NCBI RefSeq assembly: GCF_056712565.1
Contig: NZ_CM160072.1
Strand: one strand, 5' to 3'
Length of the DNA stretch: 64,000 nt
Part shown: positions 14,501 to 20,500 of the stretch, one piece after another
Position numbering within the stretch: the first letter of the stretch is position 1
Layout: each line of letters begins with the position of its first letter
Position numbers: made by a program

Positions 14501-17500
14501 GAAGCTATCAAACGTGCAGAAGCGGCTCCGGCGGCGACTGGCGGCGGTATCCCAGGCATGCTGCCGTGGCCGAAGGTGGACTTCAGCAAGTTTGGTGAAA
14601 TCGAAGAAGTGGAACTGGGCCGTATCCAGAAAATCTCTGGTGCGAACCTGAGCCGTAACTGGGTGATGATCCCGCATGTTACCCACTTCGACAAAACCGA
14701 TATCACCGAGCTGGAAGCGTTCCGTAAACAGCAGAACGAAGAAGCGGCGAAACGTAAGCTGGATGTGAAGATAACCCCAGTTGTCTTCATCATGAAAGCC
14801 GTTGCTGCAGCTCTTGAGCAGATGCCTCGCTTCAACAGTTCGTTGTCGGAAGACGGTCAGCGTCTGACCCTGAAGAAATACATCAACATCGGTGTGGCGG
14901 TGGATACCCCGAACGGTCTGGTTGTTCCGGTATTCAAAGACGTCAACAAGAAAGGCATCATCGAGCTGTCTCGCGAGCTGATGACTATTTCTAAGAAAGC
15001 GCGTGACGGTAAGCTGACTGCGGGCGAAATGCAGGGCGGTTGCTTCACCATCTCCAGCATCGGCGGCCTGGGGACTACCCACTTCGCGCCGATTGTGAAC
15101 GCGCCGGAAGTGGCTATCCTCGGCGTTTCCAAGTCCGCGATGGAGCCGGTGTGGAATGGTAAAGAGTTCGTGCCGCGTCTGATGCTGCCGATTTCTCTCT
15201 CCTTCGACCACCGCGTGATCGACGGTGCTGATGGTGCCCGTTTCATTACCATCATTAACAACACGCTGTCTGACATTCGCCGTCTGGTGATGTAAGTAAA
15301 AGAGCCGGCCCAACGGCCGGCTTTTTTCTGGTAATCTCATGAATGTATTGAGGTTATTAGCGAATAGACAAATCGGTTGCCGTTTGTTGTTTAAAAATTG
15401 TTAACAATTTTGTAAGATACCGACGGATAGAACGACCCGGTGGATAATGGGCGTCATAAAAAAACGTCAGACCCGCCGGAGATAAATATATAGAGGTCAT
15501 GATGAGTACTGAAATCAAAACTCAGGTCGTGGTACTTGGGGCAGGCCCCGCAGGTTACTCCGCTGCCTTCCGTTGCGCTGATTTAGGTCTGGAAACCGTA
15601 ATCGTAGAACGCTACAACACCCTTGGCGGTGTTTGCCTGAACGTCGGCTGTATCCCTTCTAAAGCACTGCTGCACGTAGCAAAAGTTATCGAAGAAGCCA
15701 AAGCGCTGGCTGAACACGGTATCGTCTTTGGCGAACCGAAAACCGATATCGACAAGATTCGTACCTGGAAAGAGAAAGTGATCAATCAGCTGACCGGTGG
15801 TCTGGCTGGTATGGCGAAAGGCCGCAAAGTCAAAGTGGTCAACGGTCTGGGTAAATTTACCGGGGCTAACACCCTGGAAGTTGAAGGTGAGAACGGTAAA
15901 ACCGTGATCAACTTCGACAACGCGATCATTGCAGCGGGTTCTCGCCCGATTCAACTGCCGTTTATTCCGCATGAAGATCCGCGTATCTGGGACTCCACTG
16001 ACGCGCTGGAACTGAAAGAAGTACCAGAACGCCTGCTGGTAATGGGTGGCGGTATCATCGGTCTGGAAATGGGCACCGTATACCACGCGCTGGGTTCACA
16101 GATTGACGTGGTTGAAATGTTCGACCAGGTCATCCCGGCAGCTGATAAAGACATCGTTAAAGTCTTTACCAAGCGTATCAGCAAGAAATTCAACCTGATG
16201 CTGGAAACCAAAGTTACCGCCGTTGAAGCGAAAGAAGACGGCATTTATGTGACGATGGAAGGCAAAAAAGCACCCGCTGAACCGCAGCGTTACGACGCCG
16301 TGCTGGTAGCGATTGGTCGTGTGCCGAACGGTAAAAACCTCGACGCAGGCAAAGCTGGCGTGGAAGTTGACGACCGTGGTTTCATCCGCGTTGACAAACA
16401 GCTGCGTACCAACGTACCGCACATCTTTGCTATCGGTGATATCGTCGGTCAGCCAATGCTGGCACACAAAGGTGTTCACGAAGGTCACGTTGCCGCTGAA
16501 GTTATCGCCGGTAAAAAACATTACTTCGATCCGAAAGTTATCCCGTCCATCGCCTATACCGAACCAGAAGTTGCATGGGTAGGTCTGACTGAGAAAGAAG
16601 CGAAAGAGAAAGGCATCAGCTACGAAACCGCCACCTTCCCGTGGGCTGCTTCTGGTCGTGCTATCGCTTCCGACTGCGCAGACGGTATGACCAAGCTGAT
16701 TTTCGACAAAGAATCTCACCGTGTGATCGGTGGTGCAATTGTCGGTACTAACGGCGGTGAGCTGCTGGGTGAAATCGGCCTGGCAATCGAAATGGGTTGT
16801 GACGCTGAAGACATCGCACTGACCATCCATGCGCACCCGACTCTGCACGAGTCTGTGGGCCTGGCGGCAGAAGTGTTCGAAGGTAGCATTACCGACCTGC
16901 CGAACCCGAAAGCGAAGAAGAAGTAATTTTTCGTTTGCCGGAACATCCTGCAAATTAAGAAGCGGCTATTCTGGCCGCTTCAGATTGTTGATAAAGTGCT
17001 CGTGGTTGATGCCGGATGCGGCGTAAACGCCTTATCCGACCTACAAAATCATGCAAATTCAATATATTGCATGGCTTGTGTAGGCCCGATAAGCTTGCGC
17101 ATCGGGCGATTCGATGTTTGTCATCAGTCTTAAGCGGCTAACAACGCCGCTTTTTTACGCCTGCAATTTACCTTTCCAGTCTCCTTGCTCCACGCTCAGA
17201 CAACCGTTCGCGTACCGCTGACCGTTGCTCATTATTCAATCGGGCAGTATGGTTACTGTCGTTTAGACGCTGCGGGCGGCTCTCCTGAACTTTCTCTCGA
17301 AAAACCTGACGCTGCTCAGGCGAGGCAGACTGGATACGCTGACGTGCTGCATCTCTTTGCTGTTGATTCTGCGGGTTAGTCTGCATTTTCTCGCGAACCG
17401 CCTGGCGCTGCTCAGGCGACGCGGACTGAATACGCTGACGTGCCGCTTCTCTTCTCTGCTGATTCTGCGGGTTAGCCTGAATTTTCTCGCGGACTGCCTG

Positions 17501-20500
17501 GCGCTGCTCAGGAGAAGCCGACTGATAACGCTGACGAGCGGCGTCCTTTTGTTGCTGGGTCAGTGGCTGGCGACGGCTGAAGTCGCGGAAGTCGTCATAG
17601 CTCCCATAGTGTTCAGCTTCATTAAACCGCTGTGCCGCTGCCTGACGTTGGGTATCTCGCGTAATGACGGGGGCGGCGTGTGTTCGTTGCTGAAACTGAC
17701 TTGCTGCCGCATGACGCTGGCTGTCGCGTGTTGGAGCAGGTAACTGCGTGGCGCTCATTCCGCCGTTGACATCGGTTTGATGAAACCGCTTTGCCATATC
17801 CTGATCATGATAGGTCACACCATTACGGTAGTTTGGATTGTGCCGCCATGCCATATTCTTATCAGTAAGATGCTCACCGGTGATACGGTTGAAATTGTTG
17901 ACGTCGATATTGATGTTGTCGCCGTTGTGTTGCCAGTCATTACCGTCACGATGACCGCCATCGTGGTGATGATAATCATCATCGTCATGATGATGATGGT
18001 CATGATCGTCGTCGTCCCAGTCGATGCTGCTGAATAGTGCGTATGTGGTAGCAACGCCCATGCTATAGCCGAATCCGCGCACAAAGCTGTCAACAAACGG
18101 TTCTCCGGCTGGCGGCGGCAGATAAACTGGCGGATAAGCGGTATTGGCCCAACTGCCGTAAACCACGTTTGGGTTGTAGTTCGGAATATAAACCACATCC
18201 GGATTGGCTGGCTCAATGGTTATTACGGTCGGTGCAGGTTCTGCGACGACGGGGCTGGACGTAGAAACGGTATTTGATTGTGTGGCAGGGGCGTTGGCGG
18301 GCTGATTTACCGGTACGACTTTTTTCGTTGTCGCGATGATCTTTTGTTCAGTTGATGACTTCAGCGAGCCGGTTTGTTGCGCCAGTTGCCGCAATCGCTG
18401 TACCGAGTCCATCACGTCCTGCGGCTGCGCCAGAAAAGCATCGCCCAGGTTTTGCACCCATTGCGGGTTTTCGCCCATCAATGCCATCAACTGTGGAAAG
18501 GCCACCAGTGATTTGACGCTGGCGTCCCAGGGCTGGTCAGATACAGCCTGAATAGCAGCATCGCCTTGTTTAAGTGGATTATCGTGCGACCATTGCACTG
18601 CTTGAGCAACGTTTGCCGGATAGGTTGATGCCATTAACACTTGTGAAAGCAGAGAGTCGGGGTATAGCGCGACAGGTGCAACCCATTGATCTATTTGAGC
18701 AGTGCTGAATGCGGATTTGACGACGGCAGGCGTTACGGGAGGCGCGGAAACCGTTGCAGGAAGCGTAACTGCGGAGATGTCAGGCGCAGTCTGTTGTGTC
18801 GATTGCGCTTCCACAGGCGCTTCCACTGTGCGGCTTTTTATATATAGCCCGGCAGAGGCGGCACAAAGCCCGGCACTGCAAATTAGCGCCAGCACATGGG
18901 GTTTAAACGGCAAAGTCATTTTCATAATTCGGATCTCAAGGAAATCGCAATGGTCGGCGAACTGCCACCCGCAGGTGCTGTGAATCCGAGTATAAAGAGG
19001 CCGTAGTTTAAATTTTGACTAATCTTGGGATTCGTTGAGAAAGGTGATTATCACCATGCGAATTAACGAAGTTTTTACGGAGGGAAACATTCTCTAGACT
19101 ATCCTTAACGATTCAGCCACTTTTTTATGTTGCTTTTTTGTAAACAGATTAACACATCGTCAAAATCCTGCTATTCTGCCCGTTGCGGTACTGGGCATTT
19201 ACCCTACAAACTGCTGTCTCACAGGAGCGTGAAGAGAATCGCCTGCCGCACTATGACAATGAGAGCGAGGAGAACCGTCGTGCTAGAAGAATACCGTAAG
19301 CACGTAGCTGAGCGTGCCGCTGAGGGGATTGCGCCCAAACCCCTGGATGCAAACCAAATGGCCGCACTTGTAGAGCTGCTGAAAAAACCGCCCGCGGGCG
19401 AAGAAGAATTCCTGTTAGATCTGTTAACCAACCGTGTTCCCCCTGGCGTCGATGAAGCCGCCTATGTCAAAGCAGGCTTCCTGGCTGCTGTCGCCAAAGG
19501 CGAAGCTAAATCCCCGCTGCTGACTCCGGAAAAAGCCATTGAACTGCTGGGCACTATGCAGGGTGGTTACAACATTCATCCGCTGATCGACGCGCTGGAT
19601 GATGCCAAACTGGCACCGATCGCTGCCAAAGCACTTTCTCACACGCTGCTGATGTTCGATAACTTCTATGACGTAGAAGAGAAAGCCAAAGCAGGCAACG
19701 AATATGCGAAGCAGGTAATGCAGTCCTGGGCGGATGCCGAATGGTTCCTGAATCGCCCGGCGCTGGCTGAAAAACTGACCGTTACCGTCTTCAAAGTCAC
19801 TGGCGAAACCAACACCGATGACCTCTCTCCGGCACCAGATGCGTGGTCACGCCCGGATATCCCACTGCACGCGCTGGCGATGCTGAAAAACGCCCGTGAA
19901 GGTATTGAGCCAGATCAGCCTGGTGTTGTTGGCCCGATCAAACAGATTGAAGCTCTGCAACAGAAAGGTTTCCCGCTGGCGTACGTCGGTGACGTTGTGG
20001 GTACGGGTTCATCGCGTAAATCCGCCACGAACTCCGTTCTGTGGTTTATGGGCGATGATATTCCACATGTGCCGAACAAACGCGGCGGTGGTTTGTGCCT
20101 CGGCGGTAAAATTGCACCAATCTTTTTTAACACGATGGAAGACGCGGGTGCACTGCCAATCGAAGTCGACGTCTCTAACCTGAACATGGGCGACGTAATT
20201 GACGTTTACCCGTACAAAGGTGAAGTGCGTAACCACGAAACCGGCGAACTGCTGGCAACCTTCGAACTGAAAACCGACGTGCTGATTGATGAAGTGCGTG
20301 CTGGCGGCCGTATTCCGCTGATTATCGGGCGTGGCCTGACCACCAAAGCGCGTGAAGCACTTGGCCTGCCGCACAGCGATGTGTTCCGTCAGGCGAAAGA
20401 TGTCGCTGAGAGCGACCGTGGCTTCTCGCTGGCGCAGAAAATGGTGGGCCGAGCCTGTGGCGTGAAAGGCATTCGTCCGGGCGCGTACTGTGAACCGAAA

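What the first reader, a model, noticed from the sequence alone, without database searches (positions are those of the whole stretch)
17300..18060. yacH carries a 96-bp tandem coding repeat and a His/Asp-rich tract, possibly with one repeat unit fewer than K-12
The minus-strand gene contains about three tandem ~96-bp units encoding ..QRIQSASPEQRQAVREK.QTNPQNQQ.. near its C-terminus, and a DDDHDHHHHDDDDYHHHDGGH tract. The ORF here is 585 aa. My recollection of K-12 YacH is 617 aa, which I have not verified; the 32-aa difference would equal exactly one repeat unit, consistent with repeat-number variation by slippage or unequal crossover. The His/Asp tract suggests metal binding.
Basis: partly seen in the sequence, partly recalled or inferred. 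Interest (0 to 1): 0.3.

Follow-up and report, generated by a model that had tools for sequence, protein, structure and literature searches.

The report
yacH coding repeat, one unit short
The E. coli gene yacH, which encodes an uncharacterised envelope protein, carries a 96-base in-frame tandem repeat that is present three times in this strain and four times in K-12, an ordinary and common copy-number polymorphism produced by recombination between the repeat units.

Summary

- **The gene.** The window is E. coli ATCC 11775. yacH lies at 17168-18925 on the minus strand and encodes 585 aa. It has three 96-bp (32-aa) tandem units at 17252-17539 and a His/Asp tract at 17951-18016.
- **The K-12 comparison.** K-12 YacH is 617 aa with four units, which I label A-A-B-C. 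The window allele is A-A-C. Its last unit is a chimera, so exactly one 96-bp register was lost inside the conserved SPEQRQ-coding core.
- **How common it is.** In an evenly spaced sample of 60 of 5,425 complete E. coli genomes, 32 had four units, 26 had three and 1 had two. Five-unit alleles also exist. Several different junctions occur, so the events are recurrent.
- **Direction of change.** Four units is probably the ancestral state, because other Escherichia species share A-A-B-C.
- **The His/Asp tract.** It also varies in length (+2, +8 and -13 aa), through short duplications and a deletion.
- **The protein.** YacH has an N-terminal signal or anchor and a DUF3300 domain, and no solved structure resembles it. 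The His/Asp tract is predicted to be a disordered loop. The C-terminal tail is very basic, and each repeat unit is predicted to form a helix pair.

The protein's function and any metal binding remain untested. This is an ordinary coding minisatellite and of low interest.

The parts
17168..18925 (-). yacH coding sequence, 585 aa plus stop; a DUF3300-family protein
   Evidence: ORF list. 100% identical to the annotated yacH of E. coli ATCC 11775, WP_000784410.1. Pfam PF11737 match of 261 bits against a cutoff of 25.
18836..18925 (-). N-terminal signal peptide or signal anchor (aa 1-30, MKMTLPFKPHVLALICSAGLCAASAGLYIK)
   Evidence: This is the only strongly hydrophobic 19-residue window in the protein (Kyte-Doolittle 2.04 at aa 11-29). 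It is predicted as helix 9-30. A possible A-S-A cleavage site at aa 23-25 is my reading of the sequence and was not tested.
17927..18703 (-). DUF3300 domain match (aa 75-333): a helical core at aa 75-184, then beta strands and a Pro-rich stretch
   Evidence: Pfam coordinates. AlphaFold2 pLDDT is 94-98 for aa 70-200 and about 93 for aa 230-270. Nearly invariant family residues lie at A83-P103, W133, G161 and elsewhere.
17951..18016 (-). His/Asp tract DDDDHDHHHHDDDDYHHHDGGH (aa 304-325), itself length-polymorphic
   Evidence: Coordinates. Predicted disordered, with pLDDT 41-48. Variant alleles: a 24-bp tandem duplication in strain C25, a 6-bp CATGAC duplication in ST131, and a 39-bp deletion in STO_Bone1B.
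17444..17539 (-). Repeat unit 1 (type A1), aa 463-494
   Evidence: One mismatch to unit A1 of the closest four-unit allele.
17348..17443 (-). Repeat unit 2 (type A2), aa 495-526
   Evidence: 84% nt identity to unit 1. Five mismatches to unit A2 of the closest four-unit allele.
17252..17347 (-). Repeat unit 3 (aa 527-558), a chimera. Unit nt 1-36 are A2/B-like and nt 39-96 are C-like. The deletion junction lies at about window 17309-17312.
   Evidence: Per-site comparison with units A1, A2, B and C of allele P0001/L013. Against C there are 12 mismatches in the first 43 nt and only 2 afterwards. Against A2 there are 5 mismatches in the first 43 nt.
17171..17251 (-). Degenerate terminal segment HTARLNNEQRSAVRERLSERGARRLER (aa 559-585), which resembles a decayed, shortened further unit
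   Evidence: Sequence. Predicted helix 558-576. The resemblance to a unit (AR...EQR.AVRE) is my reading and has no statistical support.
17540..17566 (-). Lead-in PLTQQQKDA (aa 454-462). At the DNA level it is the diverged start of the array in the repeat finder register.
   Evidence: The third copy at 17477-17572 is 70% identical to the reference copy. Coordinates.

Best explanation
**What it is.** yacH encodes a secreted or membrane-anchored envelope protein. It has a DUF3300 domain, a disordered His/Asp-rich loop and a strongly basic, Gln/Arg-rich C-terminal tail. The tail is built from 32-aa modules, each predicted to form two short helices.

**How the copy number changes.** The modules are encoded by 96-bp head-to-tail repeats. 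The repeats share a nearly identical roughly 40-nt core that encodes QSASPEQRQ. Misaligned homologous pairing between these cores, through unequal crossover, intramolecular deletion or replication slippage, removes or adds whole 96-bp registers. The reading frame is always kept.

**The window allele.** The allele in the window (ATCC 11775) is a three-unit derivative, A-A-C, of a four-unit A-A-B-C ancestor. The 3' part of unit B and the 5' part of unit C were lost, which left a chimeric last unit.

**How fast and how widespread.** The event is old enough to be shared by a whole lineage. Equivalent events with other junctions produced the other 2-, 3- and 5-unit alleles found in E. coli.

**Shown and inferred.** The anatomy, the copy-number differences, the chimeric junctions, the population frequencies and purifying selection on the units are shown. 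The recombination mechanism, the ancestral state, the envelope location and the tolerance of the protein to tail length are inferred.
For: - **Repeat anatomy:**
- **K-12 length:** 617 aa with four units, against 585 aa with three here.
- **Closest four-unit allele:** P0001/L013 is 99.06% identical to the window allele over nt 1-1386. Window units 1 and 2 match its A1 and A2. Unit 3 switches from A2/B-like to C-like between unit nt 36 and 39.
- **Independent junctions elsewhere:** ST131 is an A1/A2 chimera followed by B-C. PEC148 is an A/B chimera followed by C. FDAARGOS_1283 is A followed by an A/C chimera. Five-unit alleles are A-A-A-B-C (P0014, 648 aa) and P0017.
- **Unit homogenisation:** in JNE181771, units 1 and 2 are identical over their last 75 nt.
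- **Population sample of 60 of 5,425 genomes:** 32 four-unit, 26 three-unit, 1 two-unit and 1 divergent allele. A second sample is consistent with this.
- **Ancestral state:** A-A-B-C is also found in E. whittamii and Escherichia sp. E1V33.
- **Selection on the units:** dN/dS is 0.11 in units 1-2 and 0.04 in the last 59 aa between K-12 and the window, so the repeats are maintained as protein.
- **Structure and charge:** the units are predicted as helix pairs, with pLDDT 83-91 for aa 460-510. The tail has pI 11.7 and net charge +14, and the only hydrophobic segment is aa 9-30.
- **Not an assembly artefact:** the identical allele occurs in independent complete genomes (H41, H42), and a 99%-identical 585-aa protein cluster has 900 member sequences (P0016).
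Against: - No direct observation of a copy-number change exists, so the mechanism and its dependence on RecA are inferred from junction structure only.
- The chimeric 5' part of unit 3 carries 4-5 differences from every candidate parent unit. The exact parent allele is therefore not identified, and later gene conversion could have blurred the junction.
- Polarity rests on parsimony across a few Escherichia species. E. albertii and E. fergusonii were not recovered by the DNA pattern.
- The frequencies come from RefSeq complete genomes, which are a biased collection, and from 60-row samples rather than a census.
- The function of YacH is unknown, so 'tail length is tolerated' is an inference from the coexistence of common alleles.
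Confidence: 0.85

Rival explanations
1. The three-unit state is an assembly artefact, a collapsed repeat in this genome, and the strain really has four units like K-12.
For: Repeat arrays can be collapsed by short-read assemblers.
Against: - The array is only 288 bp and its units are 62-84% identical, so it is easy to assemble.
- The same 1758-nt gene is found at 100% identity in two independent complete genomes (H41 and H42).
- About 43% of sampled complete genomes carry three units.
- The last unit is a clean chimera with an intact frame.
- Protein P0016, 99% identical and 585 aa, stands for 900 member sequences.
Confidence: 0.01
2. Three units (A-A-C) is the ancestral form, and K-12-type alleles gained unit B by duplication. 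The window strain lost nothing.
For: Expansions do occur, as in the five-unit alleles P0014 and P0017. Direction cannot be read from a two-allele comparison.
Against: - Unit B is only 64-71% identical to the A units and 65% to C within K-12, which is far too diverged for a recent duplicate.
- B is present in K-12, O157, ST131, E. whittamii and two cryptic Escherichia species.
- Window unit 3 is chimeric, with an A2/B-type 5' part including the Ile codon and a C-type 3' part. A loss predicts this and a gain does not.
Confidence: 0.07
3. The array is a fast, reversible contingency locus. Copy number, and with it a surface or envelope property, switches within clones under selection from the host or from antimicrobial peptides.
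For: - yacH is much more divergent than its neighbours: 91.6% nt identity against 96.1-99.6%, and dN 0.037 against 0.0096 or less.
- The gene has at least three other slippage-type indel sites.
- A yacH deletion mutant survives protamine better, and the gene is CpxR-regulated (PMC9600279).
Against: - Units are long (96 bp), diverged (62-84%) and always in frame, so there is no on/off switching.
- Copy number is constant within sampled K-12 derivatives and O157:H7 strains.
- Identical alleles are shared by hundreds of contigs (P0077 623, P0111 550).
- dN/dS within the units is low, at 0.04-0.11.
Confidence: 0.05

Closest known systems
In-frame coding minisatellites (VNTRs) of E. coli, such as those used for generic E. 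coli MLVA typing (CVN loci)
   Same: These are head-to-tail repeats inside or near genes whose copy number differs between strains through slippage or unequal recombination. Copy number tracks lineage.
   Different: The yacH unit is long (96 bp) and diverged (62-84% between units). The range is small (2-5 units) and copy number looks stable within the K-12 and O157:H7 strains sampled. By contrast, CVN014 ranges over about 1-15 copies within ST131 (PMC3407997). I found no paper that names yacH as a VNTR locus.
aceF lipoyl-domain triplication (same window, 13424-14241)
   Same: It is a tandem in-frame repeat encoding repeated protein modules, and the only other strong tandem array in the window.
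   Different: The units are 303 bp and each encodes a folded lipoyl domain of known function. I did not examine copy-number variation there. That the yacH modules are small helix pairs in a low-complexity basic tail is a prediction.
Other DUF3300 (PF11737) proteins of Proteobacteria
   Same: They share the overall layout: an N-terminal signal, the conserved APIALYPD...YPPxYxPPP core, an acidic DW..D(H)D segment, the WxHNPxHRxGVxYRD motif and a long basic low-complexity tail ending in Arg. Several have their own tail repeats, for example P0130 GDARERAREVA.NR.AGS x4, P0182 and P0127.
   Different: The SASPEQRQ 32-aa unit was found only in Escherichia among about 100,000 species representatives, using the exact degenerate DNA pattern. 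In one distant homologue examined, the gene is followed by a DUF2950 gene. E. coli yacH instead sits alone between acnB and lpdA.
LTXXQ-motif periplasmic proteins (CpxP/Spy/ZraP)
   Same: There is a superficial likeness: PLTQQQK and SPEQRQAVRE resemble LTXXQ helix starts, the gene is Cpx-regulated, and there is a His-rich segment. This was a lead from memory.
   Different: No Pfam LTXXQ or Metal_resist match appeared even at E<=10. The best hit was DUF3106 at E=0.009, below its threshold. There was no PDB sequence or fold match. YacH should not be filed in this family.

Membership tests
DUF3300 (Pfam PF11737) | Match to the family HMM above the curated gathering score | tested here: met
   261.2 bits against a cutoff of 25, covering aa 75-333 and profile positions 2-227 of 227.
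Coding tandem-repeat (minisatellite/VNTR) polymorphism | Head-to-tail repeated units beyond chance | tested here: met
   Tandem Repeats Finder period 96, 2.6 copies, score 345. Three copies found in register. One of only two arrays scoring 100 or more in 64 kb.
Coding tandem-repeat (minisatellite/VNTR) polymorphism | Copy number differs among strains while the flanks stay collinear | tested here: met
   Alleles with 2, 3, 4 and 5 units. The spans between unique flanks differ by multiples of 96 bp in 60 sampled genomes.
Coding tandem-repeat (minisatellite/VNTR) polymorphism | Unit length is a multiple of 3 and the frame is preserved in all alleles | tested here: met
   96 bp is 32 codons. All examined alleles translate through to the same C-terminus.
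Coding tandem-repeat (minisatellite/VNTR) polymorphism | Junctions lie in homologous register, giving chimeric units | tested here: met
   Window unit 3, ST131 unit 1, PEC148 unit 1 and FDAARGOS_1283 unit 2 are all chimeras joined within or near the shared CCTGAGCAGCGCCAGG core.
Phase-variable contingency locus (simple sequence repeat switching) | Short, near-identical units whose gain or loss shifts the frame or the promoter spacing | tested here: not met
   The unit is 96 bp, the units are 62-84% identical, and the changes are always in frame.
Phase-variable contingency locus (simple sequence repeat switching) | Copy number varies within a clone | tested here: inconclusive
   Sampled K-12 derivatives and O157:H7 strains each show one copy number. 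No within-clone deep sampling was possible.
LTXXQ / CpxP-Spy-ZraP family | Match to the PF07813 or PF13801 profile, or to their solved folds | tested here: not met
Histidine-rich metal-binding proteins | Demonstrated binding of Ni/Zn/Cu by the His-rich segment | not testable with these tools
   Only composition is available: 9 His and 10 Asp in 22 residues, predicted disordered. Similar tracts are kept in Scandinavium, Rahnella and other homologues but are reduced to DWGHDDIDID in many distant ones.

The most novel reading that the evidence does not exclude
yacH could be a fast-evolving envelope gene under diversifying or fluctuating selection. In this reading, the number of basic helix-pair modules and the length of the His/Asp loop tune an interaction with cationic antimicrobial peptides, metals or host factors, and alleles are exchanged between Escherichia lineages. 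This would make tail length a functional, selectable trait rather than neutral length variation. Three observations leave room for it: the excess divergence of yacH, the imported-looking 68.7%-identity allele in strain AST85, and the protamine phenotype of the deletion mutant.
Probability: 0.1. Interest if true: 0.5.

Novelty: new member of a known kind. Interest (0 to 1): 0.2.

Why it matters
The direct importance is small. The result documents that a conserved but uncharacterised E. coli envelope gene carries a common 2-5-copy in-frame minisatellite and a second length-variable His/Asp tract.

This is useful in three ways:
- As a caution for annotation and pan-genome clustering, because alleles of 553-662 aa are one gene.
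- As a possible lineage marker.
- As a natural allelic series for anyone who sets out to find what YacH and the DUF3300 family do.

It does not open a long-standing question.

Tried and rejected
- **Known family for the C-terminal repeats.** A Pfam scan at E<=10 gave only sub-threshold hits (DUF3106 at E=0.009, DUF1104, RskA_N). NCBIfam gave nothing.
- **Second transmembrane helix.** I considered one at aa 285-303 (GFGYSMGVATTYALFSS), which would put the basic tail in the cytoplasm. The hydropathy scan does not support it, because only aa 9-30 is strongly hydrophobic.
- **MLVA locus CVN014.** I suspected that the His/Asp 6-bp duplication might be this locus. CVN014 ranges over about 1-15 copies within ST131, which does not fit, and no paper links yacH to VNTR typing.
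- **First population query.** The query included the intergenic REP element. It produced many extra places and left 9-11 rows unclassifiable. I replaced it with a K-12 tail query anchored in lpdA.
- **Protein regular expressions.** My first patterns undercounted units because of point variants. Tail length (129, 161 or 193 aa) is the reliable count.
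Full report
**Identity of the region.** The minus-strand ORF at 17168-18925 encodes 585 aa. It lies between lpdA (15499-16926) and acnB (from 19280). The gene is 100% identical to the annotated yacH of E. coli DSM 30083 = ATCC 11775, WP_000784410.1, 'DUF3300 domain-containing protein'. Pfam places DUF3300 (PF11737) at aa 75-333 with 261 bits against a cutoff of 25.

**The observation.** Tandem Repeats Finder reports one array in the region: period 96, 2.6 copies, 84% matches, score 345, at 17284-17536. The repeat finder finds three in-register 96-nt copies at 17285-17572. 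In the protein register the three units are 17444-17539, 17348-17443 and 17252-17347, which are aa 463-494, 495-526 and 527-558. Nucleotide identity is 84% between units 1 and 2, and 62-66% between either of them and unit 3.

Across the whole 64-kb window only one other array scores 100 or more, the aceF lipoyl-domain triplication. The His/Asp tract DDDDHDHHHHDDDDYHHHDGGH is aa 304-325, window 17951-18016. The stated range of 17300-18060 clips the last unit slightly.

**Comparison with K-12.** In an MG1655 derivative, yacH is annotated at 1854 nt, which is 617 aa (WP_000784470.1). Splitting the tails at the ARxRxQSASPEQ motif shows four units in K-12, which I label by type:
- A: ...QAVRE(K/R)MQTNP..QQRR.A
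- A: a second unit of the same type
- B: ...QVFKEKVQQRPLNQQQRDN
- C: ...QVFREKVQESRPQRLNDSN, followed by the terminal 27 aa

The window allele is A-A-C. The 32-aa length difference is therefore exactly one unit, and nothing else differs in length between the two proteins.

**How the unit was lost.** The closest four-unit allele I could retrieve (P0001, DNA in L013) is 99.06% identical to the window allele over the 1386 nt that precede the array.
- Window unit 1 equals its A1, with one mismatch.
- Window unit 2 equals its A2, with five mismatches, four of them in the last 20 nt.
- Window unit 3 is a chimera. Over unit nt 1-43 it has 5 mismatches to A2 and 12 to C. From about nt 39 to 96 it has only 2 mismatches to C.

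The switch lies between unit nt 36 and 39, at about window 17309-17312. This is inside the segment encoding SPEQRQ, the longest stretch shared by all unit types. A 96-bp in-register deletion between the cores of unit B (or an A2-like 5' part) and unit C would leave exactly this signature. The 5' part of unit 3 carries 4-5 private differences, so the event is not recent or has been overlaid by later changes.

**The same process elsewhere.**
- An ST131 strain (587 aa) has an A1/A2 chimera followed by B-C.
- PEC148 (553 aa) has an A/B chimera followed by C, which is a 192-bp loss.
- FDAARGOS_1283 (553 aa) has A followed by an A/C chimera, a further 96-bp loss from a window-type allele.
- P0014 (648 aa) is A-A-A-B-C with three identical A units. 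P0017 (634 aa) has five motifs with an internal deletion.
- A 662-aa allele has a 45-aa tandem duplication just upstream of the array.
- In JNE181771, units 1 and 2 are identical over their last 75 nt, whereas they differ at 10 sites in K-12. This indicates homogenisation between units.

**Population frequency.** I used a K-12 query running from downstream of the His tract into lpdA, so that both ends are anchored in unique sequence. I took 60 rows at even steps down the ranking of 5,425 matching genomes.

| Span (bp) | Interpretation | Genomes |
|---|---|---|
| 1228 (two rows at 1226 and 1229) | four units | 32 |
| 1132 | three units | 20 |
| 1303 | three units plus a 171-bp intergenic insert | 6 |
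| 1036 | two units | 1 |
| — | strongly divergent allele (AST85) | 1 |

An earlier sample with the window sequence as query agrees as far as it could be classified. Both main forms are therefore common, at roughly 53% and 43% of RefSeq complete genomes. That collection is biased, and these figures are samples rather than a census. Sampled K-12 derivatives and O157:H7 strains each show a single copy number, and identical alleles are seen on hundreds of contigs. The array is therefore a slowly changing lineage marker rather than a hypermutable switch.

**Direction of change.** An exact degenerate DNA pattern for QSASPEQRQ was scanned over one genome for each of about 100,000 species. It matched only five Escherichia records.
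- E. whittamii and Escherichia sp. E1V33 have A-A-B-C.
- Escherichia sp. MOD1-EC7003 has A-B-C.
- One record labelled E. coli has an A-A-C-like tail.
- One record has a disrupted gene.

Unit B is also old, at 64-71% identity to the A units and 65% to C. Together these make four units the likely ancestral state and the window allele a derived loss. This is a parsimony argument. E. albertii and E. fergusonii were not recovered by the pattern.

**The His/Asp tract and other indels.**
- Strain C25 carries a 24-bp tandem duplication, GACGATCATGACCATCATCATCAT (+8 aa, 593 aa).
- The ST131 strain carries a 6-bp CATGAC duplication (+2 aa).
- STO_Bone1B has a 39-bp deletion (-13 aa, 604 aa).
- DEF2 lacks VEAP in the N-terminal linker, where VEAPVEAQ is itself a short repeat.

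yacH therefore has several slippage-prone sites. Pairing allele lengths across these sites explains the many protein lengths in the databases, from 553 to 662 aa.

**What the protein looks like.** AlphaFold2 was run with a 103-sequence alignment and gave mean pLDDT 73.7.

| Region (aa) | Prediction | pLDDT |
|---|---|---|
| 9-30 | N-terminal helix | 62-67 |
| 75-184 | helical bundle | 94-98 |
| 194-301 | strands around the Pro-rich YPPVYLPPP stretch | up to 93 |
| about 310-330 | disordered His/Asp loop | 41-48 |
| 340-380 | moderately to well predicted segment | 76-93 |
| 457-576 | seven helices; each 32-aa unit gives two, starting at the S-P and N-P dipeptides | 83-91 for aa 460-510, lower beyond |

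The only strongly hydrophobic window is aa 9-30. The protein is thus a secreted or N-terminally anchored envelope protein. A-S-A at aa 23-25 would fit a signal-peptidase site, which is my reading and untested. The tail (aa 454-585) has pI 11.7, net charge +14, 20% Gln and 19% Arg.

Across 9,517 representative homologues, the core and a WxHNPxHRxGVxYRD motif are conserved, while the basic tail is a fast-changing low-complexity region. Some lineages have evolved their own tail repeats. In one distant homologue the gene is followed by a DUF2950 gene.

**Selection.** Between K-12 and the window, yacH is 91.6% identical over 1648 nt, while 15 neighbouring genes are 96.1-99.6% identical. dN is 0.037 and dN/dS is 0.16, against dN/dS of 0.03 or less for 14 of 15 neighbours. 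The excess is concentrated in two linkers, aa 25-75 and aa 191-240. The helical core (0.03), repeat units 1-2 (0.11) and the last 59 aa (0.04) are under purifying selection. The repeats are therefore maintained as protein sequence.

**Function.** Nothing here reveals it. The literature I could search says three things:
- yacH is CpxR-regulated.
- Its mRNA falls on protamine exposure, and the deletion mutant survives protamine better than wild type (PMC9600279).
- It is a frameshifted pseudogene in several Salmonella Typhimurium strains (PMC3391293).

Metal binding by the His/Asp loop is plausible from composition, and the tract is kept in Scandinavium and Rahnella homologues. It is untested.

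**Verdict.** This is an ordinary in-frame coding minisatellite in a known but uncharacterised gene. The window strain carries a common three-unit allele, derived by loss of one 96-bp register. Interest is low.

Noticed in passing
window 4155-9799: About 5.1 kb lies between aroP and pdhR that K-12 lacks (the K-12 gap is about 540 bp). It holds an IS5-family DDE transposase ORF (4531-5511, +) and a 593-aa ORF (5879-7660, +) that combines an Hcp (T6SS_HCP) domain, a Pyocin_S domain and a colicin/pyocin DNase domain. That is an Hcp-fused DNase toxin. An immunity gene is probably just downstream but was not examined.
   Followed up: partly
window 16927-17167: The yacH-lpdA intergenic region is 241 bp here, against 70 bp in K-12 and ST131. 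By eye, the extra 171 bp looks like a REP/BIME pair (for example GCCGGATGCGGCGTAAACGCCTTATCCGACCTAC). A query containing it matched a median of 17 places per genome. Its presence is polymorphic and partly independent of the repeat count: two-unit alleles occur with and without it.
   Followed up: partly
window 17168-18925 versus L011: yacH is the most divergent gene of the neighbourhood between this strain and K-12, at 91.6% nt identity against 96.1-99.6% for 15 neighbours. The linker at aa 191-240 reaches dS of about 1, which suggests old allelic lineages or imported segments.
   Followed up: partly
L020 277-2136 (E. coli AST85, NZ_AP043644.1): This E. coli genome carries a 619-aa yacH allele only 68.7% identical in protein to the window allele. 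It has 34-aa B-like units (ARQRIQSASPEQRQAFREKVQNQQRPLSQQQRDS x2), while the adjacent LpdA protein is identical to that of other E. coli. It looks like an allele imported from another Escherichia lineage.
   Followed up: partly
L016 (E. coli E69, CP089930.1): In this record the yacH reading frame ends after about 392 aa with unrelated sequence, and the repeat motif spacing is irregular (96, then 162 bp). It is probably a disrupted or rearranged gene. yacH is also reported as a frameshifted pseudogene in several S. Typhimurium strains.
   Followed up: no
L012 4001-6472: In a distant proteobacterial homologue, the DUF3300 gene is followed 15 bp later by a DUF2950 gene (E=3.5e-87). P0135 looks like a readthrough of such a pair. 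E. coli yacH has no such partner next to it.
   Followed up: partly
window 13424-14241: A 303-bp tandem array, 2.7 copies, score 980, lies within aceF. These are the three lipoyl domains of the E2 subunit, a textbook feature.
   Followed up: no
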